Of a stretch of DNA of 64,000 nucleotides, positions 6,001 through 38,881 are shown in pieces. Made by a program: the position numbers and the translations under genes. The notes under the pieces are model-generated. The model did no database searches. It was not told the DNA's origin and saw only the letters and a list, made by a program, of their open reading frames with translations. Each line of letters begins with the position of its first letter. Positions within the stretch are counted from its first letter, which is position 1. Source of the DNA: a virus; the IMG/VR virus record IMGVR_UViG_3300037504_000288; one strand, given 5' to 3'.

Positions 6001-9000
6001 AGTCTCGTTATACGAGTATTGCTCGCCGTCGTTAGCCTGGCAAGCGAACGTTACGTTATCATCTTTTGAATAATCGGTAGTCGTAAGGTTTTGAGTGGTC
6101 GCCACAACCGCGTCGTTAACACTCCACCAATAATCGTAATAGACAGCGTCTCCGTCGTCATCGACAGCGTCGCAAACCCCTGTCAGGTTCTGACTGCTCA
6201 ACGGGCTCTCAGGGGTTATGCTGATGTTCTCTATGAACGGCGGTACATCAAACGCTACATAATTTAACACGGCAGTATTAGTGTTACTCGACACGAACAG
6301 CTCACCGTAATAAGTATTATTTATATCAACATAATCCATGAAGTTTGTTTCTTCGTTGAAAGTTGTCATTCTATTAAGATTAAAATTCTTATCGAACAAA
6401 TAATCTTGAAGTTTCGAGTTGGAATTATTAAACAAGACTACCGAGAAATAATTATCTGATATTGCCTTCATATCAATAATTTCTAAAGTGTTATTCAATA
6501 AAGAACTGCTCGCTGAACAGTCTGTTCCGTTTATGGAGCAATTTATAAATTTAATATTATCAGTATTGGCTGTACCAGGGTCGTTATCGAGATATATAGT
6601 AACTACATTATCACCTAATCGTGTAGTTCTAGTCTGTTGTAATTGTGTTGCTGGACTACTAAATGTTTCGAAATTAACAACGTTACAGTCGCTCAACGAA
6701 CTATCGTTATACTCGCAATTGAACTGGTGAAATCCATAATCACCATCACTCATCACGAAATTAAACCTATTATCGCCTATGAAAATAACATCCGTGTCGG
6801 CTCTTCCTTGTTTATTTGTCACAAGACTGACACCGTTAATAGTGGAATTTGAGTAATAACTTGAAAACTCGTTATCAAATATTTTTATACCAGGGTCAAC
6901 CTCTCCAGATGATGTATGATGTGCAAACTGATAATCATCGTTCAAATATCCGACTTCAATGTAATTTTTACTACGCCCCTCAACAAATATCTCAACAATG
7001 TTACAGTTTGTTAAATCATTATCGCACGTTGTTGCTTGTACGTCATTGAAACTATCACCCCTGAAAAAAGTAACATGTGTAGCATTATTATATGTCATAT
7101 CCAATAAATTATCTAAATCAGAAACGGAATCATATAATAACACTTCTGAAGAACACGAACTCAAATCAGTAGTACACTCCTTACCGTAATAATCATGAGT
7201 TCCGTCTTCATCAACAATATATACAATCGATAGATTACCTCCACCATTCTTAACACCGTATACACTTACCATCGATGAATTATTAGAAATAAGTGTGTAC
7301 TGCTCATCTAACGTGAACTCCCTGACCTCGCTGGTCGTGGTGTTAACACCGTCAGTAACTTCAGCGTACCATGAGTAATTATGCCCGTCATCGAACCCGG
7401 TCCAGTCGTAACTCACTGTGGTGCCGTTAGCGACGTTTGTTTCGTTATGTAACAATTCTGAAGGATTTTTTGAAATATTATCAGCGTTTAACTGGTAGAC
7501 TTTGTCGTCATAACTGCCCACGTACACGTAACCATCACTGACCGTCGGGGATGACTTAACAACACTTCCTGTAGTGTAGCTGTTGACAAGGCTCATGTCG
7601 GTAGCGTCTAGCTGGTAGACTTTGTTATCAAAACTGCCCACGTACACGTAACCGCCGCTGACCGTCGGGGATGACTCAACATTATCTCCTGTAGTGTAAC
7701 TATTAACAAGGCTCATGTCGGTAGCGTTTAACTGGTAGACTTTGTCATCAGCACAGCCCACGTACACATAACCGCCGCTGACCGTCGGGGATGACCAGAC
7801 ATAACTTCCTGTAGTGTAATTGTTGACAAGGCTCATGTCGGTAGCGTTGAGCTGGTAGACTTTGTTATCTTCACTGCCAATATACACATAACCGTCGCTG
7901 ACCATCGGGGATGAGTAAACATTACCTCCTGTAGTGTAGCTGTTGATAAAGCTCATGTCGGTAGCGTTTAATTGGTAGACTTTATTATCATAACTGCCAA
8001 CGTACACATAACCGTCGCTGACCGTCGGGGATGAGTAAACATAACTTCCTGTAGTGTAGCTGTTGACAAGGCTCATGTCACTAGCGTTTAGCTGGTAGAC
8101 TTTGTTATCTTCACTACCCACATACACGTAACCATCGCTGACGGTCGGTGATGACCTAACAACACTTCCTGTAGTGTAGCTGTTAACAAAGCTCATGTCA
8201 CTAGCGTTTAGCTGGTAGACTTTGTCATCATGACTGCCTACATACACATAACCGTCGCTGACCGTCGGGGATGAAAAAACTAAACTTCCTGTAGTGTAGC
8301 TGTTAACAAAGCTCATGTCACTAGCGTCTAGCTGGTAGACTTTGTTATCAAAACTGCCCACGTACACGTAACCATTACTGACCGTCGGGGATGATTTAAC
8401 ATAATCTCCTATAGTGTAGCTTCTATTCTCAGGAGTTCCACTATAGAAGCTAACGTTCATTGAATCAAGGTCAGCGTCAGTGACGGTCGCTGACAACTGC
8501 ACGTAATCCAGGTACGTGGTGTAATTGTCAGGCGGTGATAAACTCTCGATGACCGGCGGTTCTTGAGATTGCACCTCGAACGATTGGATTTCTGTTTCGG
8601 TGGTAGATGTTTGGTCACTTACCTCGGCGGACCATGAATAAGTTGTATCATTCGACAACCCGGTCCAGTCGTAAGTCACTGTGGTGCCGTTAGCGACGTT
8701 TGTTTCGTTATGTAACAATTCTGAAGGATTTTTTGAAATATTATTAGCGTTTAACTGGTAGACTTTATCATCAAAACTGCCAACGTACACATAACCGTTA
8801 CTAACGGTCGGGGATGACCAAACATCAAGTCCTGTTGTGTAGCTGTTGACAAAGCTCATGTCACTAGCGTTGAGCTGGTAGACTTTTTCATCCCAACTGC
8901 CCACGTACACGTAACCGTCGCTGACCGTCGCTGATGAAAGAACATTATCTCCTGTAGTATAATTATTAACAAGGCTCATGTCAGTAGCATTTAACTGGTA

Positions 9001-9900: not shown

Positions 9901-9960
9901 AATGTACCACCGGGTCTTCGTAATCGAATAATAACTATACGTATTCTAAAGACACTACTC

Positions 9961-19928: not shown

Positions 19929-20284
19929 TTGGGACCTTTAAGAACCCAGTAATCGTCAAGGTACAAGTAAAAATCGTCCTCTGAATAATCATAACAATAA
20001 TAAACGTTAACACCAAGCGACGAGTTAGTAGTGACGATGTAATAATCACGGTCTGGATGTAATAATAACACTAGCCCGAACCTCGTGCCTGGAACCCTGA
20101 TTCGCCAAATCCTACCCTGTTTGATAAGCCTGGAAACGCGACGCCGCAATACTAACTGCACGCTACCGTTATCACGATAATCGCCTAGGATGGTGTAATA
20201 ACTATGAGGGGTTTCTTTAACAACTGATATTATGTTGTCATCATCATACACCACGCTCCTAACGTCTACTTTGCAACTTCGCAT
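19847..20284 (-). CDS. hypothetical protein (145 aa)
   Basis: ORF track; start overlaps stop of upstream ATPase fragment (ATGA). Confidence 0.4.
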   Translation of the reverse strand: MRSCKVDVRSVVYDDDNIISVVKETPHSYYTILGDYRDNGSVQLVLRRRVSRLIKQGRIWRIRVPGTRFGLVLLLHPDRDYYIVTTNSSLGVNVYYCYDYSEDDFYLYLDDYWVLKGPKWSRWVHKLDSLKLLKSDGREGGVMIW

Positions 20285-20871
20285 TATGAAATTTTCTCCT
20301 CCCTAACCTTATTAACAACTTGTTTAGCGTCCATCAGCAAATTCTGAACGTGCTTTTTACTAATAGGAATATCGTACTGGTTCTTGATATGTAATATGAT
20401 ACGGTTCATGCTGAACGTTGTGTCGTTCATCATGACATCCTGTAACGCTAACATTAACAACGACTTATGAACGTCCTCGGTGGTCAGTGTGTCACGCGCT
20501 ATGTCATCGTCGTAAACGTTAGACTCACGAATTTGCAAGTATTTATCATACAACCACTTCGGCGGTTTCGGGAACCTTATAACCTTCCAGAAATTAGGGT
20601 GCTTCCTAAGCTTCTTCTCAATCTTCTCAAGGCTGGTGAACTCGGTGTACGAGCCCACGTTCTTGAAATCTTTAATACGCCACGGGTCGTTGACCGGGTT
20701 CTTATCCTTAACATAGATAGCGCCAAGACCACGCCCAAACAGGTCGCAATTATGAACAACCATATTATTTGCAACAAAATTATGGTTATCTTTGACACCG
20801 ATAATATCGTAAACATCTTCTTTTTGGTCTAATTTAGTAATAGATTTTATATTAACCAACATATCTATCAC
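20284..20871 (-). CDS. IntC-like segment (41 aa) + C-extein (~154 aa) of the P-loop ATPase
   Basis: MIDMLVNIKSITKLDQKEDVYDIIGVKDNHNFVANNMVVHN|CDLFGRGLGAIYV...; GTG start immediately after an in-frame TGA; overlaps the upper ORF by 20 nt. Confidence 0.55.
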   Translation of the reverse strand: MIDMLVNIKSITKLDQKEDVYDIIGVKDNHNFVANNMVVHNCDLFGRGLGAIYVKDKNPVNDPWRIKDFKNVGSYTEFTSLEKIEKKLRKHPNFWKVIRFPKPPKWLYDKYLQIRESNVYDDDIARDTLTTEDVHKSLLMLALQDVMMNDTTFSMNRIILHIKNQYDIPISKKHVQNLLMDAKQVVNKVREEKIS

Positions 20872-21787
20872 CTTTACTCAAATTGTCTTGTGCCCATAAT
20901 GGTTGCAAATTTTTATAATTAAAACATTTATACCTTTCATCTTCTTTAGTTAAATCAAAATGTGAGCATGGAATAATATGGTCAAGATTCCATGTATCTT
21001 TACCCCAATTAACCCAACTCATTCCAGGTTTAAATTGTTTAGAAATATGAATTTTAAAATATTCTATCGAACAACCTAAATATTTAAATATTGATTGAGT
21101 TTTTTTTGTTTTATTTTTTCTCAATTCAGTGTTTAGTCTACTACGAATCACTTTTGATATTTTATAATTAATATTTAATAAAGATTTTTTTTCATGATTT
21201 CTTATTTTTTCTCTATTTTTTTTTCTATATTCACTATGTTTTTTTAAAATATCTTCTCGATTATTATAATAATTTTTTTTTAATTTTTTTAATATTTCAT
21301 TATATTTTTCATAATATCTTTTTCTACAACGATGTTTATTATCTTCTCTATTTATTTCTCTATATTTTTTATTATAATTATATTGTCTTTCTGTTCTCAC
21401 ATTAAATGCGTTCTTACATTTTTCTGAACAATAAATTTGTTGTTGTTTTTTTGGTAAAAAATCTTTTTTACACCAATTGCATTTTTTTGTTTTAACTTCT
21501 ACTTTATCATCTTCTGACAAATCTTTTAACCTAATCCATCCACGTTGTGTTAAAAATGGGTGGTCTTCAGTACATTTAATTTTCAATCCATTTTCTAATT
21601 CTAATTCATAAATTTCAGCATTTTTCTTTGTTTTAATTTTTTTTTCATATTTTTTAAATTCATACTCTTTTGTTTTTTCATTAAAACTCAACACTTCAGG
21701 ATTATATTTATTCAATTTTTTAACCGGTGTATTTCTAATCATTCCATTAATATCACGAGTTTTTATTTTAGTATCACCTGTAACACA
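20749..21787 (-). other. intein 2 with HNH homing-endonuclease domain, interrupted by a +1 frame change at ~20852-20871 (split or frameshifted)
   Basis: Starts CVTGDTKIK (codon 332 of upper ORF); terminal blocks VYDIIGVKDNHNFVANNMVVHN followed by Cys+1 are in ORF 20284..20871 in the +1 frame. Confidence 0.55.
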
Positions 21788-22780
21788 CCAATAATTTACA
21801 AATGAATTATGCACAACAAAATTATTGGCTATATAATTATGATTATCTTCAACATCTAATATATCATAAACATTTTTTTTATCTTTACATTCTATAGATA
21901 ATATTTTAGTATACGATAAATCATTTAATTTTATTTCGTCATTAATTTTTATTTCATGTAAATGTTTCCAACCATTGTATGTCATAAATCTATGGTTTTT
22001 TGTTGCTAATATTTTTGTATTAGATTGTGTAATAATCTCATAAACATAATCTGTTTTTGTTTTTATACAACTTTTTGCATTTTTTAATTCTAAGGTGTTT
22101 AATTTTTCATTTAAAGTATAAACTTTAAAATTTTGTTTACCTTCTAAATCTTTTATTTTAATATCACCAAATTCGGTTTTTATTAAAGTGTCACCGTCTA
22201 AACACTCTAAATAGTTTTTCTCCATCTTATAAATCTTCAACGGGAACGCTAAGATGAAGAATAAATGTTTAGTTCGTACCTCGGCGAGCTTCCGACGCAA
22301 TTCTTTACTCTCACTTTTTGCCCAATCAGCGGATGAGGCAAACCGTACTGCCTCGTCACAAACCAACGGCTCGAACTTATTCAATGAATCAACCTTGTCC
22401 ATGACGTCCTTATTACTATACGCAAAATGCCTTTTAGGGTCGAACCGTATCCCTATCAACTTACACCACTCGCGCGCTAATAATAGGGCCGCCGAACTCT
22501 TACCGGTTCCTTTATCACTTGTTAGTAGTAACATACTATCGAAGTTCGCAAGGTTACGATGAAGTATGTGTTTGACGAATAATTTGAACACTTCATACTT
22601 ATCAAACTTGTTATCGACTTTAGCTTTAGTCTCGTATTCTATCATTTCTTGAATGATAAAAAGAACATCGTTTATACTAAGCTTGACATCCTCGGGGGTG
22701 TCAGTGTTCCAATTTTTTTTTATAATTTCTAAAATAACCCTTTGTCTAGCAAATCCCAATCCTTGAGACACTATTATCAC
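20852..22780 (-). CDS. P-loop NTPase (putative DNA-packaging/terminase-like ATPase), N-extein + mini-intein + 6-aa linker + N-part of HNH-intein
   Basis: Walker A LLLTSDKGTGKSSAAL and Walker B PLVCDEA in first 192 aa; then CLDGDTLIKT...NVYDILDVEDNHNYIANNFVVHN|S (intein blocks A,B,F,G), then SFVNYW, then CVTGDTKIKTRD... containing an HNH module (CNWCKKDF...CSEKC...DHIIPCSHF...N) up to the stop at 20852. GTG start at 22780 overlaps the TGA of the upstream small gene. Confidence 0.6.
   Translation of the reverse strand: MIIVSQGLGFARQRVILEIIKKNWNTDTPEDVKLSINDVLFIIQEMIEYETKAKVDNKFDKYEVFKLFVKHILHRNLANFDSMLLLTSDKGTGKSSAALLLAREWCKLIGIRFDPKRHFAYSNKDVMDKVDSLNKFEPLVCDEAVRFASSADWAKSESKELRRKLAEVRTKHLFFILAFPLKIYKMEKNYLECLDGDTLIKTEFGDIKIKDLEGKQNFKVYTLNEKLNTLELKNAKSCIKTKTDYVYEIITQSNTKILATKNHRFMTYNGWKHLHEIKINDEIKLNDLSYTKILSIECKDKKNVYDILDVEDNHNYIANNFVVHNSFVNYWCVTGDTKIKTRDINGMIRNTPVKKLNKYNPEVLSFNEKTKEYEFKKYEKKIKTKKNAEIYELELENGLKIKCTEDHPFLTQRGWIRLKDLSEDDKVEVKTKKCNWCKKDFLPKKQQQIYCSEKCKNAFNVRTERQYNYNKKYREINREDNKHRCRKRYYEKYNEILKKLKKNYYNNREDILKKHSEYRKKNREKIRNHEKKSLLNINYKISKVIRSRLNTELRKNKTKKTQSIFKYLGCSIEYFKIHISKQFKPGMSWVNWGKDTWNLDHIIPCSHFDLTKEDERYKCFNYKNLQPLWAQDNLSKGDRYVG
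21806..22204 (-). other. mini-intein 1 (133 aa; Cys1 ... His-Asn, +1 Ser)
   Basis: Codons 193-325 of ORF 20852..22780; block A CLDGDTLI, block B-like ATKNHRF, blocks F/G VYDILDVEDNHNYIANNFVVHN. Confidence 0.65.
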
Positions 22781-26661: not shown

Positions 26662-27081
26662 TTACTCACCTCCCAATCCTGAGAACTCGTTATAATTCTG
26701 CAATGTCTGGCCTAGCGTATTGTTCAATTTTCTAATTATACTGTTAACAAAATCGGTCGAGCACTCTTGTAGTTTGCTAGCTTCGTTATAATCCATAACC
26801 TCGCCAACACCGTTTTGGAACCCGTGTATATAATTATACTTGACAACAACCTTGTCCGACACCATCTCTAGCCTGACCGGCTTGACCAGTTTCGGAAACA
26901 TATCGTTCATAGTGTTAACGTCAATGAACACTTTTGGTTCTAAGAACTCGAACATCGGCGTGTAACTACAGTACACTCCTGGATACTTTTCTTTCATCAC
27001 CGCATAATCACGATTGAACGCGTGGTTCATGGTGTTTAGTTCGACAACCTTCTTATCCATAAATTTTTTTATATTTGTCAT
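26662..27081 (-). CDS. hypothetical protein (139 aa)
   Basis: ORF track. Confidence 0.45.
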   Translation of the reverse strand: MTNIKKFMDKKVVELNTMNHAFNRDYAVMKEKYPGVYCSYTPMFEFLEPKVFIDVNTMNDMFPKLVKPVRLEMVSDKVVVKYNYIHGFQNGVGEVMDYNEASKLQECSTDFVNSIIRKLNNTLGQTLQNYNEFSGLGGE

Positions 27082-27213
27082 TATTGTTCACCTTTCTTCT
27101 GATTCTCAACCTGCTCGTCTATCATAACGAGCAACTCGTCAACACTCCACATTTTCTTACCTTCCTTCATACTCTTCGAGAGCCCTTCAAATAGTTCAGT
27201 TCTATCTTCCATT

Positions 27214-27375
27214 TTACCTTTCACCATCATATTTATATTTTGGCGGTCGTATTAAGAAATATTCTTCCATTATACTGTTGATAGCCTCCGCCTTACTACT
27301 AATATCATTATACGACATATAAATCCGCAATTGCTTATCCAAATGCGAGTCCATTCTAATTTGAACTTGTACCAT
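27214..27375 (-). CDS. ribbon-helix-helix DNA-binding protein (53 aa), first gene of the minus-strand block
   Basis: Not in track (<60 aa). ATG at 27375 ~25 nt after tttatata (leaderless); MVQVQIRMDSHLDKQLRIYMSYNDISSKAEAINSIMEEYF = beta-strand/helix/helix RHH pattern. Confidence 0.5.
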   Translation of the reverse strand: MVQVQIRMDSHLDKQLRIYMSYNDISSKAEAINSIMEEYFLIRPPKYKYDGER

Positions 27376-27733
27376 ACTAATTAATATATTAAACTATTAT
27401 ATAAACTTATCGGTTTTGCAACTTGATAATTTTCAAATATTCTTGTATGGTATCGTTGATGCTCCATTTTCCTCCTCCTATGGTTTCTTGAAAATGGTCG
27501 CGGTCTTTTTTCAATCGGTTATGTATATTTTCCGACACGCTTATTTTTTTGAATTTAGTTTTTTTTCTCATACTACTTTGAAAGTAGCACTAATATATAA
27601 GTTTTTCTATTATCAAATATTGAATCTCATTTAATGATTTTTTATGATTTTTCATTAAATTAGATTCAATCTATTTTCTTCAAAATTCACCTTTTTTTAT
27701 ATTCTATATTATATATTTTAAAAACCACAAACC

Positions 27734-27749
27734 TTCATTTCCTGTGGAA
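27734..27749 (+). promoter_or_regulatory. ORB-like origin recognition box 1
   Basis: TTCATTTCCTGTGGAA; resembles archaeal Orc1/Cdc6 mini-ORB dyad TTCCnGTGGAA. Confidence 0.45.
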
Positions 27750-27823
27750 CTAGTCTAAAACGCTTCTATCCTTTAAATTCTTAAGTCTCAAGCTCTAATT
27801 TGACATTTAAATTTTTTAGACCT

Positions 27824-27839
27824 TTATTTCCTGTGGAGA
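27824..27839 (+). promoter_or_regulatory. ORB-like box 2
   Basis: TTTATTTCCTGTGGAG. Confidence 0.4.
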
Positions 27840-27932
27840 ATGTGGTTTTTATTCTACTAATATAATGTTTAGTATATTAATATAGTGTTTTCAAAACACC
27901 TCTCTAACACCCCCCCCTCAGTTTTTCCAGAT

Positions 27933-28622
27933 TCTGCCAATACGGGTAATGAGTAGTAACAAATAGTTGTGATATAGAATATATATCATACTTTATCATA
28001 CTCGGAAAAATAAATATACTATTATACATATATGTATATTGCTTAAAAGTTTTAAGCAAAAATAAAAAAACACTTGCCAATCCTGCCAAGAAAAACTTAT
28101 AAAGGGTAAAAAGAAAAAATTTATAAATGATGAGTTATAAGAAAAAATAAATTCTTAAGATATTAATAACTACACGTTCTCTACCTTTATAATTCTAATA
28201 TTTACTACTAAAAAGTAATCTTGGCAGACGCCAAAAATTCTGCCAAGAAAAACTTATAAATGATGAATTAACAGTCATTTATAAATACATAGTGCCTAAT
28301 TATTTTCTAATTCTTAATAATTATAATAATACAAACCCTCTATATACAAAATCAATATCTGTTACTACTAATAAGATGTATTGGCAAAATTAGCTAAATT
28401 TAGCTAAATGACATTTACGCAATTCTGAGATACTTATTATATTTTTTAAACATTATTTTTTAATTTATAGGTTTTGGTAGTATATCAAAAAGCCAATTTT
28501 GCCAAGTGGAGCGGATATTAATATACTATTGTGGATTTTATTGATACCAATATACCCCTAATTTTGACAATTTCTGCCAAGTTTCTGCCAAGTTTTGCCA
28601 AAATTGTTAAAATTCTGCCAAG
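27933..28622. repeat. cluster of ~10 (T)CTGCCAAG / TTGCCAA iterons incl. palindrome tcttggcag-N11-ctgccaaga (28219..28247) and 4 copies within 28572..28622
   Basis: Direct reading: 27933, 28073, 28083, 28221(inverted), 28240, 28381, 28491, 28501, 28574, 28584, 28594, 28614; gccaagaaaaacttataaa repeated exactly at 28083 and 28240. Confidence 0.7.
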
Positions 28623-28691
28623 ATTACCTTTTAGTAGTAACGGATTTTTTACAGTGTAAAAACTATATGTTATAGTATACCATAGACCACC

Positions 28692-28708
28692 TTCATTTCC
28701 TGTGGAAA
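28692..28708 (+). promoter_or_regulatory. ORB-like box 3
   Basis: TTCATTTCCTGTGGAAA. Confidence 0.45.
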
Positions 28709-28843
28709 AAAATATCACTACCGTTGTAAATGTAGAATTATAAGGTTTCAGAGCCTCTACCGTGATTAGAGTGTAAAAACCAAAAAATATATAAATAAGA
28801 AGTTTAATGATTGATGTCAAGATATCAAATAAGGTGGTATAAA

Positions 28844-29041
28844 ATGACGAAAACATTCCCTTTAAGAATTGATGAAAATACTCATCGAAAACTGAAAATG
28901 TTAGCGGCTAAGAACAACACGTACGTTAACACTTTGATACTTGAGAGTATAATATTGTTATTCTACAAGTATCAAACGAACGTTGACGATGTAGAGGTTG
29001 ATTTTGACGAGTCAGAAAAATATAGTGTTAATAACGAATAA
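28844..29041 (+). CDS. ribbon-helix-helix transcriptional regulator (65 aa), first gene of plus-strand block
   Basis: SD aaggtgg; MTKTFPLRIDENTHRKLKMLAAKNNTYVNTLILESII (RHH pattern). Track start 28811 is probably too long. Confidence 0.55.
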   Translation: MTKTFPLRIDENTHRKLKMLAAKNNTYVNTLILESIILLFYKYQTNVDDVEVDFDESEKYSVNNE

Positions 29042-29140
29042 ATATTTAAACTAGTTAGGGATAGGTAATAAGACTAACTTAAAATTTTTTTTCCTCAGCG
29101 AGAGTGCGTGTGAGGAGGGTAGTGAGGTCGAGATGGTAAA

Positions 29141-31333
29141 ATGATTGATAACAAAACGTTGCAAGTAGTATCGCGCGAGGAGATAATATCATTCTTGAAA
29201 AGCAAGTTTTCAAGGATTAAAAAAGAGGATTGTATAAAACTCGCGGCAGCGTTGGTGACGACTGATTCTAATAATAGAAAGGTTGAGGTCAGGCAGTTCA
29301 AGGACAAGTATAAGGAGTTCGTGCGACGAAACCCTATATACTTCGACACGGTGGTGAGTGATGATGTTAAGAACGGCGTCACTTATTATTATATTAAGAA
29401 GGAGAAGGCTGATTACTTGTTCGAGGAGATTGTCAAGTTATTGGAGCAGATTGGCTCGTCGCTGAAAGACATTCAGGACACTGACGACGCTTGGGAGAAG
29501 GATAAGGGTCATGACATGTACCTTGTCAAGAAGCACACTACGTTCCAAGATATTCGCGAGAAGGTCGACGCTGAAGGTAAGGATGTGAATTTTAAGTATG
29601 ACTTTGAAAACCCCGACCTCGAGCTTACTAACTTCAATAATAAAATGACTTTGCAAATGGTCAAGGTGCATGTTAACGATAACGGCGAGTATTTCGGGTT
29701 CCCGCTACGATACTATTATTATTGTCCCGAGTGTAATAATATTAGCGACCGCAAGGAGTACGAGGTGGCGTCTTCTAACGGCGCGCATATTAACTGTCCT
29801 GCGATAGTCCAGAAGGAGAAGAAGGACGGTAGCGTGTCGATTGTCAAGTGCAACGAGTACCTAATCCCTGATACTAACCGTACCGAGACCAAGGACACGT
29901 ATATTTACAGCATCAGCTACCGTAGCGAGGACGGGTTCGTGCACAAGGCTGACGCTATCTCGTTCAAAGAACTGCCGAAGGGTCAGGTTAAGGTCGTGCT
30001 CCAGAAGCTACCGCGCGCTTACGGTAACGCGTTCGTTCACATTGTCGATTATAAGAAGATTGACAACGTTGGGATGCAACTTCCGGAGCGCGTCGACGGC
30101 GAGCATTACATATTCACGCTCGTGCGCGCTGTTGACGATTATGTTCTTGAACAGGCTAATTATTATCATTACGGATATTTGCCTATCAAGATTGCTCACT
30201 TGATACAGTTCGCGGCACGGTATCTTCCTAACTTCCGTAATGACCTTAACATAGCACTCTCTGGTGGCATGTCGACTGGTAAGTCGAAGTTCAGCATTTA
30301 CTGGGGGTTGGCGTTATACTCGCAGAGTGCTTGGAAGAGCAACGCTACTTCCATCAGCATCCCTAAGTTGCGAGGCACTATGGAGAGCGTACGGTTGTTC
30401 AACAAGGAGCATCGTTACCAGTACCGTGGATTGTTCGGCACTTACGACCTCATTATTATTGACGAGGTTAAGGAGAACCCTGACGTCAAGAATAATTTGA
30501 AACAGTACTTGTTAGAGCCAGATTACGAGTTCAGCAGGCAGGGTGGTAGCAACCAGACTTTTAACAGGACCGCTCATGTTAACATCACCCAGAACATCGA
30601 CACGACGTTCCTTAGCAAGTATGAGAAGGACGTGCGTTATATCTACACGAGCGACGAGTACACACCTGTCGTCAGCAAGGACGAGCCGAAGCCCGTGTGG
30701 AGCGATAGTGTAGACTTGACGTTGCCTTTGTATACTTACACGAACCATTACTTGATACACGCTATCGACAGGGTTCGTAAATCTTACGAGCGTAACGGTG
30801 TTAACTGGATTGACGGTTCGGAGATTGCGTTGAAACAGCGATTTTACTTCTACTTCTACTTATCGGCGGAGAAGCAGACCGCTGAGCTTACAAGGGTCGT
30901 TCGTGAGAACATCGACCGCGAGGTCGTCAGTAATTATAACGAGCTGACGCAATTGTTCAATATGGACAAGTTGAAAGAGATGATACAGTCCAACCAGCAC
31001 TTGGTAAAGTCTGATAACGAGCTAGCTTATTTCGACAAGGTCGATAAGTTGTTGAGAGAGTACGGTAAGTTCTTGGACACGCGTACCAAGACTATGAGTT
31101 ACACGATTCTAAAGATTATAAGGATGCTCGATGGTCGCGAGCTTTACATTGATAAAGACCTCGAGATATTCCAGTATTTACTGGAGAGTATTGATAACAA
31201 GATTGAGGTCGCTGACACTAACGAGTTCGTAGTTCACGGGCCTAGGAGTGTTGATAACTCCAAGGTTGAAGAATCGTTCGCCGAGCGCAGCGACGATTGG
31301 GGTTTCGAATCATCACTCGATAGTTTCGAATAG
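29141..31333 (+). CDS. MCM-like AAA+ ATPase / putative replicative helicase (730 aa) with N-terminal C4 zinc finger
   Basis: CPECNN...NCPAIV zinc finger, Walker A LSGGMSTGKSKF, Walker B DLIIIDEV, sensor-like NRTAHVNITQN; domain order resembles MCM but no clear SRFDL arginine finger (WSDSVDL). Confidence 0.4.
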   Translation: MIDNKTLQVVSREEIISFLKSKFSRIKKEDCIKLAAALVTTDSNNRKVEVRQFKDKYKEFVRRNPIYFDTVVSDDVKNGVTYYYIKKEKADYLFEEIVKLLEQIGSSLKDIQDTDDAWEKDKGHDMYLVKKHTTFQDIREKVDAEGKDVNFKYDFENPDLELTNFNNKMTLQMVKVHVNDNGEYFGFPLRYYYYCPECNNISDRKEYEVASSNGAHINCPAIVQKEKKDGSVSIVKCNEYLIPDTNRTETKDTYIYSISYRSEDGFVHKADAISFKELPKGQVKVVLQKLPRAYGNAFVHIVDYKKIDNVGMQLPERVDGEHYIFTLVRAVDDYVLEQANYYHYGYLPIKIAHLIQFAARYLPNFRNDLNIALSGGMSTGKSKFSIYWGLALYSQSAWKSNATSISIPKLRGTMESVRLFNKEHRYQYRGLFGTYDLIIIDEVKENPDVKNNLKQYLLEPDYEFSRQGGSNQTFNRTAHVNITQNIDTTFLSKYEKDVRYIYTSDEYTPVVSKDEPKPVWSDSVDLTLPLYTYTNHYLIHAIDRVRKSYERNGVNWIDGSEIALKQRFYFYFYLSAEKQTAELTRVVRENIDREVVSNYNELTQLFNMDKLKEMIQSNQHLVKSDNELAYFDKVDKLLREYGKFLDTRTKTMSYTILKIIRMLDGRELYIDKDLEIFQYLLESIDNKIEVADTNEFVVHGPRSVDNSKVEESFAERSDDWGFESSLDSFE

Positions 31334-34814: not shown

Positions 34815-35299
34815 CTCGCAGGGTCGCGATACTAGTCGATGGTATCAGCTTATTCCACGGGCTCGAGCATCGCACTTTGAGCTTTAACAGTTTCAAGGAC
34901 TGGCTAGCCGACGGTGACGAGGTCGTGTTCGCAGGTTATTTCAATAGTGTTAATAACAAGTTTCGTAAGAAACAATTCTTCGACCACGTCGCGCGTTCAG
35001 GGTTTACACTTTACATACGAAGCACTTATTATAACTCCGAGCTCGGCAGGCAGAAGCTTTACAACGTGACTAGCGACATGATAGCCGAAGGCTTAAGAGT
35101 GCTCGACGAGGTTGATAAATTGGTTATTGTCAGCGGCAAGGCTGATTTGTTAACATTGGTTGAGAAGTACAGGTTGTCTTCTAAAGAAGTAGAGGTGGTC
35201 CAGTACTTGCATAATAACCATTCGCTACTCGATGATTACACAACCCGTCACGTTAGCGATTATTTCAATCATTTAGAAAAAAAATATATATATAAATGA
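34802..35299 (+). CDS. NYN/LabA-like PIN-fold nuclease domain protein
   Basis: VAILVDGISLFHG ... KLVIVSGKADLLTLVEK pattern of NYN domains; C-terminus KKYIYK* encoded by the class-2 promoter sequence. Confidence 0.45.
   Translation: MERMTRRVAILVDGISLFHGLEHRTLSFNSFKDWLADGDEVVFAGYFNSVNNKFRKKQFFDHVARSGFTLYIRSTYYNSELGRQKLYNVTSDMIAEGLRVLDEVDKLVIVSGKADLLTLVEKYRLSSKEVEVVQYLHNNHSLLDDYTTRHVSDYFNHLEKKYIYK
35276..35299 (+). promoter_or_regulatory. class-2 promoter for toxin-like gene A
   Basis: GAAAAAAAATATATATATAAATGA, 25 nt upstream of ATG 35323. Confidence 0.45.
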
Positions 35300-35322
35300 T
35301 TGAACATTTTATAATCTACATT

Positions 35323-36750
35323 ATGACATTCAATATAGACAAAATCCTAGGCACTAAAAAATCGAAGAATGCACCGTCTTTTTCTAACATGACGCTTTCT
35401 AACACTTTCGGTAAGAACAAGTTCTCCGATATGATAGGCGGTCTCACAAAAAAACCGTTACATAACATGGGTGCTTCGATGGAAATGCAGAATAAATGGA
35501 AGGGTATGACCCACCAGCAGCGTAACACTGCCAGGCGCAAGTATAAGGATAGCGACGGCGACAGGGTGCCTGACATGTTCGATTGTCAGCCTCATAATAT
35601 AATGCGCCAGGACTTCACGCCGTTCCGTGACCATACCAAAGCCGAGGGCATGAGCGCGGCGCGCCGGTTCGGCGGTCGTAACCTTAAAGGTCTCAAGAAG
35701 CTCGGTAGCGGCCGTGACCGCGACGTTTACGAGCTTGACAAGGACAAGGTTTTGAAGGTCGCTAAGAACCCGGGCGGTCTGTCGCAGAACGCTTCGGAGT
35801 CAGAGGTGGAGATTTGGGACCTCGGCAAGCATTACGAGACCGGCAAGGATTACGTTGTGATGCAACGTAACAAGCCGTTGTCCAAGCAAAATAAGCAAAA
35901 GCTCGCGATGGTGCGTAAGGAGGCTGGTAAAGTGCCTTATAAGAGGTCGCGTCAGGAGTACTTGAGCAACGTTAAAATGCGTTTATCGTCCGAGAATAAC
36001 GTGCTCGACAGCGCCGGTATTGGCACCGACGTACTCAATTATGATTTCACGCCTGATGAGCTGTTCGCTAACCGTCAATGGGGCGAGGACGCCGAGGGTA
36101 ACTTGCAACTCAACGACGGCGGCGCATTACAAACCGGTGATTCGTTGTCTAAGTATAGGGTTAAGGATTTCAAGAGTGACGACTGGCAATCCCATGAGTG
36201 GCGAGATGTGCAACAGCAGCGTCGCGAGTATAGGGACCGTGGCACGTTCGACGAGCAGCGCAAGCAGCGTCGCGGTTATCCGCAAGCGAGTTATCAAGAT
36301 GCTGCCGAGTTCTTCGATTCCGACGACCAACTTCAAGGTGATGATAATGTTACATTATACCACGGTACTAGGAAAGATTTTTTAGACAGTATAAAAGAAA
36401 AAGGGCTTGTTCGGAAATCAGGCGGTATGAACGATGGTGCTAAAGTGTACCTGACAGGCAGTCGTGAGGTCGCTATGCACCATGCAAGGCAAGGTCCGGA
36501 ATATGAAGCATACTCACAACCGTACCAGAACATTGATTTGTTTGACACTATGCAAAACAAAGACTCACGAGAGTACGATGAGCCTGAAGGTGCGGTGTTG
36601 GAAGTGCAAGTTCCAAGGCGGGATTTGACAGACGAGCAATTACAACAGTTAGAGACTGACCCGGACAGTGTTTATGAGATACCTTATTCTAAGGATATAC
36701 CAGCGGAGAAGGTTAATGTTTGGGAGTCTCAAGGTGAAAAAAATGTTTGA
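35323..36750 (+). CDS. toxin-like protein A: N-terminal FNIDKILG leader, C-terminal ART-fold (H-G-T) domain
   Basis: MTFNIDKILGTKK...; C-terminal LYHGTRKDFLDSIKEKGL...VYLTGS...AVLEVQV (cf. diphtheria toxin SYHGTKPGYVDSIQKGI, PARP/Tpt1 H-G-[ST]). Track start 35296 rejected (inside promoter). Confidence 0.5.
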   Translation: MTFNIDKILGTKKSKNAPSFSNMTLSNTFGKNKFSDMIGGLTKKPLHNMGASMEMQNKWKGMTHQQRNTARRKYKDSDGDRVPDMFDCQPHNIMRQDFTPFRDHTKAEGMSAARRFGGRNLKGLKKLGSGRDRDVYELDKDKVLKVAKNPGGLSQNASESEVEIWDLGKHYETGKDYVVMQRNKPLSKQNKQKLAMVRKEAGKVPYKRSRQEYLSNVKMRLSSENNVLDSAGIGTDVLNYDFTPDELFANRQWGEDAEGNLQLNDGGALQTGDSLSKYRVKDFKSDDWQSHEWRDVQQQRREYRDRGTFDEQRKQRRGYPQASYQDAAEFFDSDDQLQGDDNVTLYHGTRKDFLDSIKEKGLVRKSGGMNDGAKVYLTGSREVAMHHARQGPEYEAYSQPYQNIDLFDTMQNKDSREYDEPEGAVLEVQVPRRDLTDEQLQQLETDPDSVYEIPYSKDIPAEKVNVWESQGEKNV

Positions 36751-38881
36751 CATAGACAAAATTTTAGGATATAAAAAGAAAAATAATAATATAAACACTA
36801 AAAAAATGTTTAATAATTTGAAACCTATTAAAGAGACCAAAATTTCAGGGAAACCTGTACAGATATTTAATAATAACCCAATACCTAAAAGAAGCACTAT
36901 TAAGAACGCTTATGATAAAATCCCTGACGACACGAATATCCCGTTACAGTTTATGACGCGTAAACAGTATTTAAAAAAATACGTTAACAATCAGGAGCGT
37001 AAGAACGGAGTCAAGTTTTCCAAGCAACAGCGCCAGAAGTATTATAAGAACAACAAGGACGAATACGGTAATATAATAGGTCGTTATACTACGGAAAAAA
37101 ACCCGTATTACAAACCGGCAGTCGTTGTGTTTAATGACAAGTCTAACTTTAAAAATATCAAAGGTGATGGTTTTAAGAAGTTTGCATGGCACGAGTTCGG
37201 TCACGAGTTCGTCGAAGACCACGGTGTTAAGATGCCAAAAATGCGTGAGGAGCAATTCGCAAACCATATTGAAAAATACGGCACAAATGGTAAAGAGTTC
37301 GACGCAGGACGTGCCAAAAAACGGCTTAATAAAATGAGCGTTGGTATAACCGATGATACTAGTTCTAAAAACTCGGAGGATGTTAATGAATTGTTTCAGA
37401 GGATGCAGTCTGTCCTTGATAATCCTGATAAAGAACTTGATAGTATGCGACAATCAGATGCTGTTAAATCAAAGGATACTGAACAGTATTATAAATCCTT
37501 AAAAAACAGAGATTTTGAAGGTTTGAGTGATGAAGCGAGACAAAATTTACAAGAAATTATGCAGACTGAGAATAAGCCGATATCACGCTACCATAAAAAA
37601 TCTACTGTAAAAGGACAGTTATCAGAAGGCGAGTATGAGTATAGACAACAATTACCACAACAAATATTTGGCAAGGATTATATTGATTTGAATAATAATG
37701 AGAAGAATAGAATAAGGGATATGCGTATAGAAAGAGATGCTAGCTATAAACAAATTCCTGGAAATGATGAGCATTCAGAGAATAAAATATTTTATCATGG
37801 TACAAATAAACAAAACATAGAATCAATTAAAGAAAAGGGTTTAAAACCCAATTTTAGTACAACTAGTGATTATTCAAAAACAGGTAAAGTATATTTATCA
37901 CCATCAGAAAAATATGCAGCATTGTATGCTCAAGAAAATTTTTCTAATCCAACAGTATTAAAAATCGATGTGGATTCTGATATAGATGAGTCTCGTGAGT
38001 ATGATGGTGATATTGATTCAGATAAAGTATTATCTTATAGGGATGTATCAAGAAATTTCATGGATGTTTATAATGAGTCTGAACAAAAAAATTGGGTGCC
38101 GTTAAAAGATACTGATTCCAAAAATGATACAAAAGAACGCCAACAAATGAAAGGACGACATTGGACAACTTCAGGTAAGCTACATCCTTGGCAGAAGAAT
38201 CTTGTCGGACTGGCAAGACAATCTAAAGATTCCAATGAATTTTTATATTATAAGGATTATGGAAGACCAGTCCATTTAACAAGAGAAGATAAAGAAGATT
38301 TTAAATTATCGCAAGAGAAAGGAAGTCGTGATATGAGTTCGATGGGCAGCAACCATGAACAGAAAGGTAGTATAATGTTTACAAACGATTTAGGTTATTG
38401 GGATTCGCATTATAATAATTATGATTATAATTGGGAGACTGGAAAGGAAGAATATGAGCATTCTAAAGAAGAAGATTTGACAAGACCTACTGTGGCTGTT
38501 ATTGACTTGAGCGGTTCAGAGAAAGATAAGGCTTTTGTGAATGCAAACCGTGGTTTTGGCGACGAACATTTTGTAGAGGATGTTAATAAAATAGGCGTTC
38601 AAGAAGTTAATGATATAGAAGTGGAGCGTAATAAACAGAAAGAATTTGAAGAAAAGTTTGATTTTCAAAATGTTCAGGAGATTAAACAGTTTTATGAACT
38701 TGCTAATAGCGAGGAAGGAAAACGATTATTAGAAAATGATGAATATTCAAAGAATAAAATATTTTATCATGGAACGAGTAAAGAAAATAGACCACTCCCA
38801 GGCGGTAATAGTCAGATGAGTGATAATGAATATATTTCTTTAGAGGTTGTTTCTGAAGATATAATAGAAGAACCAAGGTGA
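36743..38881 (+). CDS. toxin-like protein B: FDIDKILG leader, zincin-like HEFGHEFVEDH motif, two ART-fold (H-G-T) repeats
   Basis: MFDIDKILGYKK...; FAWHEFGHEFVEDHG (HExxH + H at +6, metzincin spacing without Gly); IFYHGTNKQNIESIKEKGL...VYLSPS and IFYHGTSKENRPLP; ATG overlaps stop of gene A (ATGTTTGA). Confidence 0.5.
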   Translation: MFDIDKILGYKKKNNNINTKKMFNNLKPIKETKISGKPVQIFNNNPIPKRSTIKNAYDKIPDDTNIPLQFMTRKQYLKKYVNNQERKNGVKFSKQQRQKYYKNNKDEYGNIIGRYTTEKNPYYKPAVVVFNDKSNFKNIKGDGFKKFAWHEFGHEFVEDHGVKMPKMREEQFANHIEKYGTNGKEFDAGRAKKRLNKMSVGITDDTSSKNSEDVNELFQRMQSVLDNPDKELDSMRQSDAVKSKDTEQYYKSLKNRDFEGLSDEARQNLQEIMQTENKPISRYHKKSTVKGQLSEGEYEYRQQLPQQIFGKDYIDLNNNEKNRIRDMRIERDASYKQIPGNDEHSENKIFYHGTNKQNIESIKEKGLKPNFSTTSDYSKTGKVYLSPSEKYAALYAQENFSNPTVLKIDVDSDIDESREYDGDIDSDKVLSYRDVSRNFMDVYNESEQKNWVPLKDTDSKNDTKERQQMKGRHWTTSGKLHPWQKNLVGLARQSKDSNEFLYYKDYGRPVHLTREDKEDFKLSQEKGSRDMSSMGSNHEQKGSIMFTNDLGYWDSHYNNYDYNWETGKEEYEHSKEEDLTRPTVAVIDLSGSEKDKAFVNANRGFGDEHFVEDVNKIGVQEVNDIEVERNKQKEFEEKFDFQNVQEIKQFYELANSEEGKRLLENDEYSKNKIFYHGTSKENRPLPGGNSQMSDNEYISLEVVSEDIIEEPR

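What the first reader, a model, noticed from the sequence alone, without database searches (positions are those of the whole stretch)
27214..29041. Putative replication origin and control region at the strand-switch: ORB-like boxes, CTGCCAAG iterons, palindrome, flanked by divergent RHH genes
All genes left of 27375 are on the minus strand and all genes right of 28844 are on the plus strand. The 1.5-kb gap between them is AT-rich and non-coding. It contains three co-oriented copies of TTCATTTCCTGTGGAA(A) at 27734, 27824 and 28692, which closely match the archaeal Orc1/Cdc6 mini-ORB dyad TTCCnGTGGAA. It also contains about ten copies of (T)CTGCCAAG, four of them within 50 bp at 28572..28622. 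One pair forms a perfect palindrome, tcttggcag-N11-ctgccaaga (28219..28247), and there are two exact copies of gccaagaaaaacttataaa. A small RHH gene is the first gene on each side (27214..27375 and 28844..29041). RHH dimers typically bind such direct or inverted short repeats. No Orc1/Cdc6 gene was seen in the window, so a host initiator would have to be recruited.
Basis: partly seen in the sequence, partly recalled or inferred. Interest (0 to 1): 0.7.

Follow-up and report, generated by a model that had tools for sequence, protein, structure and literature searches.

The report
Archaeal-type replication origin beside viral MCM
The 1.3-kb gap where the genes switch strand is most likely the replication origin and early-gene control region of a large uncultivated archaeal virus or plasmid. 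It carries three copies of the box that archaeal cells use to mark their own origins, a field of short element-specific repeats, and it sits directly upstream of the element's own, very divergent, MCM helicase gene.

Summary
There are three corrections. A conserved 54-aa minus-strand gene (27407-27571) lies inside the "gap", so the non-coding stretch is 27572-28843. The palindrome spacer is 12 nt, not 11. Only the right-hand small protein is demonstrably RHH.

The 19-nt box, read on the minus strand, is TTCCACAGGAAATGAAGGT. It matches published archaeal ORB sequences at 16 of 18 positions. It is conserved in the same gap in 9 of 18 related loci. The same degenerate 19-mer lies 29-340 bp from orc1/cdc6 in at least 13 archaeal genomes.

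Every relative has its own over-represented 6-8-mer in the gap, often about 11 bp apart, next to an omega/Mnt-like RHH gene.

Best reading: an ORB-type origin that uses the host's Orc1/Cdc6, interleaved with divergent archaeal promoters and RHH operator iterons. All function is inferred. Half of the relatives lack ORBs, and here all three ORBs point the same way.

I rate this a new variant of a known kind, of moderate interest.

The parts
27214..27375 (-). 53-aa small protein (MVQVQIRMD...), the second gene of the leftward arm after the 54-aa gene. It belongs to a conserved family of 22 metagenomic homologues. An RHH fold is plausible but not demonstrated.
   Evidence: ORF. Orthologues lie at the same position in L002, L005, L006, L007, L011, L016, L023 and L119. 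No Pfam hit, no PDB-profile hit, hhalign probability 2% against the RHH family. The single-sequence AF2 model has pLDDT 63, with coil at 1-9 and helices at 10-20 and 25-42.
27398..27405 (-). Archaeal TATA box TTTATATA, 22 nt upstream of the ATG at 27375. The spacing implies a leaderless transcript.
   Evidence: Read from the sequence. The same TTTATATA lies 24-25 nt before the orthologous ATG in L002 and L005. The promoter assignment is inference from the archaeal TATA consensus.
27407..27571 (-). 54-aa basic small protein (MRKKTKFKKISVSENIHNRLKK...).
   Evidence: conserved in L001. No Pfam or PHROG hit. A TATA-like TTATATAT at 27593-27600 lies 21 nt upstream of its ATG.
27619..27670 (.). 19-nt inverted repeat with a 14-nt spacer, just upstream of the 54-aa gene's promoter. 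It is a candidate operator or hairpin.
   Evidence: Repeat I7, 95% complementary. One G:C pair is replaced by T:A on both arms in L001.
27640..27720 (.). The most AT-rich stretch of the gap (85-88% AT), abutting ORB1. It is a candidate unwinding element. A second stretch of equal AT content lies at 28440-28480.
   Evidence: AT profile. The assignment as an unwinding element is inference.
27731..27749 (-). ORB1. The minus strand reads TTCCACAGGAAATGAAGGT.
   Evidence: Matches the published ORB consensus.
27820..27838 (-). ORB2. The minus strand reads CTCCACAGGAAATAAAGGT.
   Evidence: 29 bits with the family matrix.
27934..28622 (.). Iteron field with 11 copies of the core TGCCAA. Nine are on the plus strand (27934, 28074, 28083, 28240, 28499, 28574, 28585, 28595, 28615) and two on the minus strand (28220, 28380).
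   Evidence: 23-fold enrichment, 0 of 5000 shuffles. All copies are conserved in L001.
28083..28103 (+). Iteron fused to an A-rich/TATA-like element (CTGCCAAGAAAAACTTATAAA). An exact second copy lies at 28240-28260. These are candidate regulated promoters inside the gap.
   Evidence: Repeats D1 and D5. Identical in L001. The promoter reading is inference.
28219..28248 (.). Perfect palindrome TCTTGGCAG-N12-CTGCCAAGA, formed by two inverted iterons.
   Evidence: There are no substitutions against L001 across 28200-28249.
28572..28622 (+). Phased iteron cluster with copies at 28574, 28585 and 28595 (10-11 bp apart) and 28615.
   Evidence: Tandem Repeats Finder period 11, 2.9 copies.
28689..28707 (-). 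ORB3, an exact copy of ORB1. It lies 137 bp upstream of the RHH start and 452 bp upstream of the MCM start. An ORB at -450 to -540 from the MCM start recurs in L001, L005, L007, L010 and L023.
28782..28797 (+). A-rich/TATA-like element AAAAAATATATAAATA, about 46 nt before the RHH ATG. It is the candidate promoter of the RHH-MCM unit. A Shine-Dalgarno-like AAGGTGGT lies at 28831-28838.
   Evidence: Read from the sequence. Inference.
28844..29041 (+). 65-aa ribbon-helix-helix protein, the first gene of the rightward arm. An RHH gene sits directly upstream of the MCM gene in nearly all relatives.
   Evidence: Pfam HicB and Antitox_RHH, E about 2e-4. PHROG Arc-like repressor. The family profile hits omega repressor 2bnw (E 4.9e-4), Mnt (9e-4), SSV E73 (1.2e-3), ParG and SvtR. 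Orthologues.
29141..31333 (+). 730-aa, highly divergent MCM-type replicative helicase. It has a 4-Cys zinc finger with an OB domain, Walker A GGMSTGKS, Walker B IIIDEV and an SRF-like KQRF arginine finger.

Best explanation
The gap 27572-28843 is the replication origin of a large archaeal virus or virus-like extrachromosomal element (relatives reach about 115-127 kb). It is merged with the divergent promoters of the element's two gene arms.

The proposed mechanism is as follows.
1. The three ORB boxes are bound by the host cell's Orc1/Cdc6 initiator. The element has no such gene in the 64 kb seen.
2. Bound Orc1/Cdc6 then loads an MCM helicase onto the AT-rich DNA beside or between the boxes. 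This is most likely the element's own divergent MCM, encoded immediately downstream.
3. The element's own PCNA, RFC and PolB then take over.
4. Dimers of the adjacent omega/Mnt-like RHH protein bind the roughly 11 TGCCAA-core iterons between the ORBs. Several iterons are about 11 bp apart, and two directly abut TATA-like elements.
5. RHH binding sets the activity of the promoters inside and at the edges of the gap, and probably access to the origin. This gives each lineage its own specificity.

What is shown:
- The motifs exist, are enriched and are conserved.
- The box is identical to ORBs next to cellular orc1/cdc6 genes.
- The neighbouring proteins have MCM and RHH folds.
- Archaeal TATA boxes lie at leaderless spacing from the start codons.

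What is inferred: binding by Orc1/Cdc6, binding of the iterons by the RHH protein, the site of unwinding, and origin firing itself.
For: 1. ORB identity. The minus-strand reading TTCCACAGGAAATGAAGGT(GGT) matches the published 'Ca. M. intestinalis' ORB GTTCCAGTGGAAATGA-AGGGGT and the archaeal consensus CTTCCAGTGGAAACGAAAGGGGT. The only differences are at the two central dyad bases (PMC4153887 Table 2). The invariant TTCC and GAA cores of Pyrococcus ORBs are present (PMC1904270).
2. Conservation. Nine of 18 loci whose MCM is only 43-53% identical carry the box in the homologous gap. There are 20 hits in 16 kb of gaps, against 2 in 223 kb outside them.
3. Cellular counterpart. The pattern YTCCAYAKGAAAYGAAGGT hit 119 genome loci, of which 72 are archaeal. 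At least 13 of those lie 29-340 bp from orc1/cdc6, usually in a cdc6-dp1 operon, and occur as 2-4 copies. About 0.2 such hits would be expected by chance.
4. Context. The downstream gene is an MCM. The same arm encodes an RNase T-like exonuclease, a nuclease-helicase, PCNA, RFC and PolB.
5. No Orc1/Cdc6 was found in the window or in the related loci.
6. Shared architecture. The order ORB(s), then an iteron field of 400-850 bp, then an ORB, then about 140 bp, then RHH-MCM is seen in the window, L005, L023, L017 and L019.
7. Iterons. They are 23-fold enriched. Each lineage has its own 6-8-mer, with 10-11-bp phasing in several loci. The adjacent RHH family resembles omega, Mnt, ParG and SvtR, all of which bind arrays of short repeats.
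8. Selection. The gap is more conserved between the window and L001 than the flanking coding DNA. For example, there are 7 differences in 28050-28249, against 35 in 27000-27149.
9. The cumulative GC-skew minimum falls at 28-29 kb.
Against: - All three ORBs point the same way. Cellular origins found with the same motif mostly have inverted pairs, and so do relatives L005, L007 and L011.
- Half of the relatives (L002, L006, L008, L012, L014, L016) have no recognisable ORB, although they keep the iterons, the RHH gene and the MCM gene. ORBs are therefore not essential to the family's common mechanism.
- The ORBs are about 850 bp apart, much further than around a typical unwinding element.
- GC skew cannot be separated from transcription direction.
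- Only 64 kb of a genome of about 120 kb was seen, so an Orc1/Cdc6 gene could lie elsewhere.
- The same 19-mer also occurs right after DGR-like repeats next to reverse-transcriptase genes. The motif therefore has at least one context that is not an origin.
- No capsid or terminase hallmark gene was recognised in the window.
- There is no experimental data of any kind.
Confidence: 0.6

Rival explanations
1. The gap is a purely transcriptional control region. It holds the divergent early promoters and their operators. The ORB-like boxes act as operator sites for an Orc1/Cdc6 paralogue or another factor working as a transcription regulator. This could couple the element's gene expression to the host cell cycle or to DNA damage. 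Replication would start somewhere else.
For: - TATA boxes lie at leaderless spacing from both leftward genes, and there are TATA-like elements inside the gap.
- Two iterons abut TATA-like elements.
- The RHH family resembles known repressors.
- ORB3 lies at a conserved distance upstream of the RHH-MCM unit.
- Non-initiator Orc1 paralogues that act as global regulators are documented (abstract of PMC9738581).
- Half of the relatives lack ORBs.
Against: - The box matches initiator-type ORBs found next to cellular orc1/cdc6-dp1 operons.
- The position directly upstream of the MCM gene, at the head of the replisome arm and at the skew minimum, is what an origin would show.
- No other repeat-rich AT-rich region is seen in the 64 kb.
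Confidence: 0.2
2. The gap is a self-contained iteron origin. The lineage-specific iterons would be the true origin repeats, recognised by an element-encoded initiator. That initiator could be the divergent MCM itself, acting like SV40 large T antigen or papillomavirus E1, or the RHH protein acting as a loader. The ORBs would be an accessory acquired only in some lineages.
For: - Iterons, the RHH gene and the MCM gene are present in all relatives, whereas ORBs are present in only half.
- The iteron sequence changes with lineage.
- The MCM is too divergent for Pfam to recognise.
Against: - The MCM model shows the ordinary MCM domain layout, with no extra DNA-binding domain evident.
- The ORBs are strongly conserved where they are present.
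- RHH proteins of the omega/Mnt type are known as regulators and centromere binders, not as initiators (my own knowledge).
Confidence: 0.12
3. The gap is a partition (centromere-like) site. The phased iteron arrays would be bound by an RHH centromere-binding protein, as in parC/ParR, ParG or omega systems.
For: - There are 11-bp phased direct repeats in two clusters.
- The RHH family profile weakly hits omega and ParG.
Against: - No ParA/ParM-type ATPase gene lies next to the gap here or in the relatives.
- This reading does not explain the ORBs or the adjacent MCM gene.
Confidence: 0.05
4. The repeats are chance or low-complexity features of an AT-rich intergenic spacer and have no specific function.
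For: The region is AT-rich, and short repeats are common in such DNA (one search lists many weak pairs).
Against: - None of 5000 shuffles reach the iteron count.
- The box is conserved in relatives whose MCM is only 43-53% identical.
- The gap is more conserved than the coding flanks.
Confidence: 0.01

Closest known systems
Archaeal chromosomal oriC with ORB elements bound by Orc1/Cdc6 (Pyrococcus, Sulfolobus oriC1, Methanomassiliicoccales; also the DPANN and Methanosarcinales loci found here)
   Same: - The ORB sequence is nearly identical.
- There are several copies in an AT-rich intergenic region.
- The region lies next to a core replication gene.
- It coincides with the strand and skew switch.
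   Different: - No orc1/cdc6 gene is adjacent. The neighbour is an MCM gene.
- All three ORBs are co-oriented rather than in inverted pairs.
- About 850 bp, filled with element-specific iterons, separates ORB2 from ORB3.
- The G-string is short (AGGT rather than AGGGGT).
ORBs predicted in genomes of archaeal viruses (for example pleolipovirus HHPV4, by Ori-Finder 2)
   Same: The idea is the same: a viral genome carries host-like ORBs near a base-disparity minimum (PMC5867852).
   Different: - That prediction was for a 15-kb haloarchaeal pleolipovirus, using a halobacterial pattern.
- Here the element is about 120 kb and encodes its own MCM, PCNA, RFC and PolB.
- Here the ORB call is backed by conservation across relatives and by matches at cellular oriC.
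MCM helicases encoded by archaeal viruses and other mobile elements, and large (~100 kb) archaeal tailed viruses with near-complete replisomes
   Same: An element-encoded MCM together with PCNA, RFC and PolB, as described in bioRxiv 10.1101/2025.02.15.638363, which cites Krupovic et al. 2010.
   Different: - This MCM is too divergent for the Pfam MCM model.
- That paper contains no occurrence of the phrase 'origin of replication'.
- No virion genes were recognised here.
RHH regulators that bind arrays of short repeats: omega of pSM19035 (7-bp heptads), Mnt/Arc, ParG and ParR/parC, and the archaeal viral proteins SvtR, E73 and F55
   Same: - A small RHH gene lies next to arrays of 7-8-bp direct and inverted repeats with about 11-bp phasing, some overlapping promoter elements.
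- L011's TGTCACA iteron even resembles the omega heptad (my own knowledge).
   Different: - Sequence similarity is weak (E about 1e-3).
- Binding has not been tested.
- The arrays are embedded between ORBs.
- No partner ParA gene is present.

Membership tests
ORB/Orc1-Cdc6-type archaeal replication origin | Presence of ORB or mini-ORB sequences matching the consensus (TTCC...GAA core, dyad, 3' G-rich part) | tested here: met
   TTCCACAGGAAATGAAGGT matches the published ORBs at 16 of 18 positions. The TTCC and GAA cores are present. The same 19-mer occurs at cellular oriC sites next to cdc6.
ORB/Orc1-Cdc6-type archaeal replication origin | Several ORBs flanking an AT-rich unwinding element, typically as inverted pairs | tested here: inconclusive
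   There are three ORBs and AT-rich stretches. All three are co-oriented, and ORB2 and ORB3 are about 850 bp apart. Relatives L005, L007 and L011 do have inverted pairs. Cellular sites are mostly inverted.
ORB/Orc1-Cdc6-type archaeal replication origin | Adjacent orc1/cdc6 initiator gene | tested here: not met
   There is no Orc1/Cdc6 gene in the window or the related loci. The adjacent replication gene is an MCM. Adjacency is usual but not obligatory for an origin that uses a trans-acting host initiator.
ORB/Orc1-Cdc6-type archaeal replication origin | Binding by Orc1/Cdc6 and mapped replication initiation | not testable with these tools
   This needs EMSA, footprinting or ChIP, together with marker-frequency or initiation-point mapping.
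ORB/Orc1-Cdc6-type archaeal replication origin | Nucleotide-skew inflection at the site | tested here: inconclusive
   The cumulative GC-skew minimum is at 28-29 kb. It coincides exactly with the gene-strand switch, and only 64 kb of the genome is available.
MCM replicative helicase (protein at 29141-31333) | MCM fold: N-terminal OB domain with a zinc finger, followed by an MCM-type AAA+ domain | tested here: met
MCM replicative helicase (protein at 29141-31333) | Walker A, Walker B and the arginine finger (SRF motif) | tested here: met
   K381, D441/E442 and R567 (within KQRF) are invariant in 20 homologues. Motif identity was judged by inspection.
MCM replicative helicase (protein at 29141-31333) | Recognition by the curated MCM sequence model | tested here: not met
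   No Pfam family at E <= 0.1. No PDB sequence hit at E <= 1. Membership therefore rests on fold and motifs.
Ribbon-helix-helix DNA-binding proteins | Sequence or profile similarity to RHH families (right-hand protein, 28844-29041) | tested here: met
   Pfam HicB (1.7e-4) and Antitox_RHH (2.8e-4). PHROG Arc-like repressor. Family profile against omega, Mnt and E73 at about 1e-3. The support is moderate.
Ribbon-helix-helix DNA-binding proteins | Sequence or profile similarity to RHH families (left-hand proteins, 27214-27375 and 27407-27571) | tested here: not met
   For 27214-27375: no Pfam or PHROG hit, no PDB hit with the family profile, hhalign probability 2% against the right-hand RHH family, and none of its 22 homologues carries a Pfam domain. 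For 27407-27571: only Pfam and PHROGs were searched, without a hit. The only support is a compatible secondary-structure pattern for 27214-27375 in a low-confidence model.
Iteron/operator arrays bound by a cognate small regulator | Clustered short repeats with helical phasing next to the regulator gene, and repeat sequence that changes together with the lineage | tested here: met
   Enrichment and 10-11-bp phasing. Each lineage has its own 6-8-mer, and loci with near-identical RHH heads (L002, L006, L008) share the same iteron. Which protein binds the iterons was not tested.

The most novel reading that the evidence does not exclude
This is a dual-key viral origin. Host Orc1/Cdc6 bound at host-mimicking ORBs and an element-specific RHH bound at rapidly diversifying iterons would together license loading of the element's own ultra-divergent MCM. 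The iteron-RHH pair would act as a lineage-specific incompatibility or exclusion determinant. ORB-less relatives would have become independent of the host initiator. If so, this family would be a natural series showing how a mobile element takes over, and then dispenses with, the cellular origin-licensing step.
Probability: 0.25. Interest if true: 0.7.

Novelty: new variant of a known kind. Interest (0 to 1): 0.5.

Why it matters
Large archaeal viruses are known to carry MCM, PCNA, RFC and PolB genes. How their replication is started is essentially undescribed. In particular, it is not known whether the host Orc1/Cdc6 loads a viral MCM.

This locus gives a concrete, conserved and testable DNA element for that question. 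It has ORBs identical to those at cellular orc1/cdc6 genes, placed next to a viral MCM gene. Relatives with and without ORBs provide natural controls.

The ORB variant may also help to link uncultivated elements to hosts. Candidates are DPANN archaea or Methanosarcinales, and one relative sits in a 'Candidatus Iainarchaeum' bin.

The kind of element is expected from current knowledge, so this is useful rather than very surprising.

Tried and rejected
- DNA and protein searches of the gap, the MCM gene and the MCM protein against 50,697 deposited phage and archaeal-virus records found nothing.
- An Rfam scan of 27000-29300 gave only sub-threshold chance matches, so there is no known RNA gene in the gap.
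- ARAGORN found no tRNA genes in the window.
- I first suspected TAG recoding in 1-10 kb because few ORFs were listed there. That was wrong. The region is one giant minus-strand ORF that runs off the window end.
- ORFs inside the gap (27904-28089, 28195-28278 and 28518-28856 on the minus strand; 28292-28393 on the plus strand) were rejected as genes. They are truncated in L001, or their differences from L001 mostly change the amino acid.
- A PHROGs search of the left-arm large proteins for capsid, portal or terminase gave only intein-region matches. The 'virus' label therefore rests on a relative being listed in IMG/VR.
The single-sequence model was too weak for a fold search.
- The partition-site idea was considered and down-weighted because no ParA-like gene is nearby.
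- tblastn with reverse transcriptase and Cdc6 queries against the window and the viral loci was negative.
- A relaxed ORB pattern search in the ORB-less relatives found nothing convincing.
Full report
**1. What is in the sequence**

Genes run leftward from 27571 down to position 1 and rightward from 28844 to 64000.

It is conserved in the close relative L001. The non-coding gap is therefore 27572-28843, about 1.27 kb. Its GC is about 0.27-0.30, against about 0.43 around it.

The gap holds three co-oriented copies of ACCTTCATTTCCTGTGGAA:
- 27731, exact;
- 27820, with 2 mismatches;
- 28689, exact.

There is no other copy in the 64 kb, even at a low matrix threshold.

CTGCCAAG occurs exactly 7 times in the window, 6 of them in the gap. 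The core TGCCAA occurs 11 times in the gap. That is 8.6 per kb, against 0.38 per kb elsewhere, and none of 5000 shuffles reached that count. Three copies at 28574, 28585 and 28595 are 10-11 bp apart.

Two inverted copies form the perfect palindrome TCTTGGCAG-N12-CTGCCAAGA at 28219-28248. The 21-mer CTGCCAAGAAAAACTTATAAA occurs twice. The spacer is 12 nt, not 11.

**2. The neighbours**

The 65-aa protein at 28844-29041 is an RHH protein at moderate significance:
- Pfam HicB and Antitox_RHH at about 2e-4;
- PHROG Arc-like repressor;
- a profile of 13 orthologues hits omega repressor, Mnt, SSV E73, ParG and SvtR.

The left-hand 53-aa protein belongs to a well-conserved family of 22 homologues. 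Nothing identifies it as RHH beyond a compatible coil-helix-helix layout in a weak model.

The same arm encodes an RNase T-like exonuclease, a PD-(D/E)XK-SF2 helicase, PCNA, an RFC-like clamp loader and an intein-containing PolB. This is an archaeo-eukaryotic replisome.

TTTATATA boxes lie 21-22 nt before the start codons of both leftward small genes. The same arrangement is seen in distant relatives. That fits archaeal leaderless promoters.

No Orc1/Cdc6 gene was found.

**3. Relatives**

The MCM has 39 homologues, all from metagenomes. I fetched 24 loci.

All those with enough flank show the same layout: a leftward arm, a gap of 0.7-1.3 kb, then a small RHH gene followed by the MCM gene.

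L001 (MCM 96% identical) keeps every motif. The gap is more conserved between L001 and the window than the flanking coding DNA. None of the ORFs inside the gap behaves like a gene.

In 9 of 18 loci, whose MCM is only 43-53% identical, the gap contains the box. Its consensus is ACCTTCATTTC[CA]T[AG]TGGA[AG]. There are 20 hits in 16 kb of gaps and 2 in 223 kb elsewhere. The scoring matrix was trained on those same boxes, so the informative number is the low count outside the gaps.

Usually one or two boxes lie at the left edge and one lies about 450-540 bp before the MCM start, with the iterons between them.

The other half of the loci have no recognisable ORB.

Every locus has its own strongly over-represented 6-8-mer in the gap:
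- CTGCCAAG;
- AATGGCA[AG];
- GTGGCAA;
- TGTCACA, in 15 copies;
- TGGGAC[AC];
- TTCCCAA;
- CAGTGAC and AAAGCCA.

These are often 10-11 bp apart. Loci with near-identical RHH N-terminal strands (L002, L006, L008) share the same iteron.

**4. Is the box an ORB?**

Read on the minus strand, the box is TTCCACAGGAAATGAAGGT.

Published ORBs include GTTCCAGTGGAAATGA-AGGGGT ('Ca. M. intestinalis') and the archaeal consensus CTTCCAGTGGAAACGAAAGGGGT (PMC4153887 Table 2). The only differences in the first 18 positions are at the two central dyad bases. The TTCC and GAA cores reported as invariant and required in Pyrococcus are present (PMC1904270).

A scan of one genome per species for YTCCAYAKGAAAYGAAGGT gave 119 loci. 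By my count of the record titles, 72 of them are archaeal. Archaea are a small minority of that collection (about 5% of species in releases I know, from memory).

The archaeal hits are mostly DPANN lineages, with several Methanosarcinales. They fall into three groups:
- At least 13 lie 29-340 bp from an orc1/cdc6 gene, usually in a cdc6-dp1 operon. They are accompanied by further copies, mostly inverted.
- Nine lie beside PolB genes in Aenigmarchaeota-like contigs, some of which have cdc6 a few kb away.
- At least nine lie 170-470 bp upstream of reverse-transcriptase genes, with a context that looks like the 3' end of DGR repeats. This third context is an unexplained second use of the motif.

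**5. Best explanation**

The gap is an ORB-type origin served by the host's Orc1/Cdc6. It loads the element's own MCM. It is interleaved with the divergent promoters of the two arms and with operator iterons for the adjacent RHH protein. I put this at about 0.6.

The motifs, their conservation, the cellular counterpart and the folds are shown. Binding, unwinding and firing are inferred.

The points against are:
- the co-orientation of all three ORBs;
- the wide spacing between them;
- the ORB-less relatives;
- the confounded skew;
- the unseen half of the genome.

The rivals are:
- transcription control only (0.2);
- an iteron origin with an element-encoded initiator and accessory ORBs (0.12);
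- a partition site (0.05);
- chance (0.01).

**6. Comparison and novelty**

ORB origins, MCM genes in archaeal viruses, large archaeal viruses with near-complete replisomes, and RHH regulators on repeat arrays are all known. ORBs have been looked for in viral genomes before.

What differs here is the combination. Host-type ORBs have no cognate orc1 gene. They sit next to an MCM too divergent for sequence models. They bracket a field of lineage-specific iterons, in a family where half the members have lost, or never had, the ORBs.

An IMG/VR scan found the same ORB 19-mer in 62 viral contigs. Many are 8-13 kb, and the ORB is often paired with an inverted mini-ORB about 12 nt away. Host-like ORBs therefore seem common on uncultivated archaeal mobile elements.

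One family member lies in a 'Candidatus Iainarchaeum' MAG contig. This hints at a DPANN host but rests on binning alone.

I rate this a new variant of a known kind, with interest 0.5.

Noticed in passing
L084:1978-1996 and 4367-4385; also L034, L039, L052, L075, L079, L085, L105, L134 (genome contigs of Woesearchaeota and Methanosarcinales MAGs): The same ORB-type 19-mer sits 170-470 bp upstream of reverse-transcriptase (RVT_1) genes. It is preceded by a conserved context (..cgtcgtgcAAAAAAtt), directly after a stop codon. This looks like the 3' end of the variable or template repeats of a diversity-generating retroelement. L084 has two copies with identical context 2.4 kb apart. I cannot explain why an origin-recognition-box sequence follows DGR repeats.
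   Followed up: partly
L150, L157, L175, L190, L192, L193, L195, L198, L200, L202 and other IMG/VR contigs (L144-L205): 62 IMG/VR contigs carry the ORB 19-mer. Many are 8-13 kb, and two have matching ends, which suggests they are circular. In many of them the ORB is followed about 12 nt later by an inverted mini-ORB (ATTTCCTATGGA). No Cdc6, MCM or RT gene was detected in them with my queries. They look like small archaeal elements with host-type origins.
   Followed up: partly
window 1-9945 (-): One giant ORF of at least 3315 aa runs off the left end of the window. It is built of PQQ/BamB-like beta-propeller repeats, with three arrays of 120-bp tandem repeats at 448-1386, 7483-8421 and 8745-9684. 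My first guess of TAG recoding here was wrong.
   Followed up: yes
window 20852-22780 (-), 20284-20871 (-), 49997-52582 (+): Intein splicing domains occur in a 642-aa leftward protein and in the neighbouring 195-aa ORF, and in the family B DNA polymerase. Relatives also carry inteins or homing endonucleases in the SF2 helicase gene (L002).
   Followed up: no
window 62296-62745 (+); 35296-38881 (+); 57810-58682 (+): The window encodes a Tad2-like (anti-Thoeris) domain protein, two large proteins with weak PARP and Tpt1/KptA (RNA 2'-phosphotransferase) matches, and an SPFH/Band 7 protein. These may be counter-defence or host-manipulation genes.
   Followed up: no
L119:3384-7058 (PWLL01000077.1, 'Candidatus Iainarchaeum archaeon' MAG, Cock Soda Lake sediment): A 44-kb contig binned into a DPANN MAG carries the same module: the left 53-aa gene, an ORB with TGTGACA-type repeats, and an MCM 48% identical to the window's. 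It is either a mis-binned element or a hint at the host.
   Followed up: partly
window 27900-28750 against L001 2510-3360: The non-coding gap is more conserved between the two close relatives than the flanking protein-coding DNA. There are 0-5 differences per 50 bp in most of the gap, against 8-14 in some coding bins. A C8-9 tract at 27913-27921 is conserved, although it gains a base in L001.
   Followed up: partly
L002, L006, L008, L012, L014, L016 (gaps upstream of the MCM): Half of the related loci have iterons, the RHH gene and the MCM gene but no recognisable ORB. L012 and L014 instead have palindromes such as AGTGACTGTATATACAGTCACT. The family may therefore use more than one way of marking the origin.
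   Followed up: partly
window 54381-54548 (+): An array of 28 copies of ACAACC (18-bp super-repeat) lies inside the 253-aa ORF at 54106-54867. It encodes a low-complexity segment.
   Followed up: no
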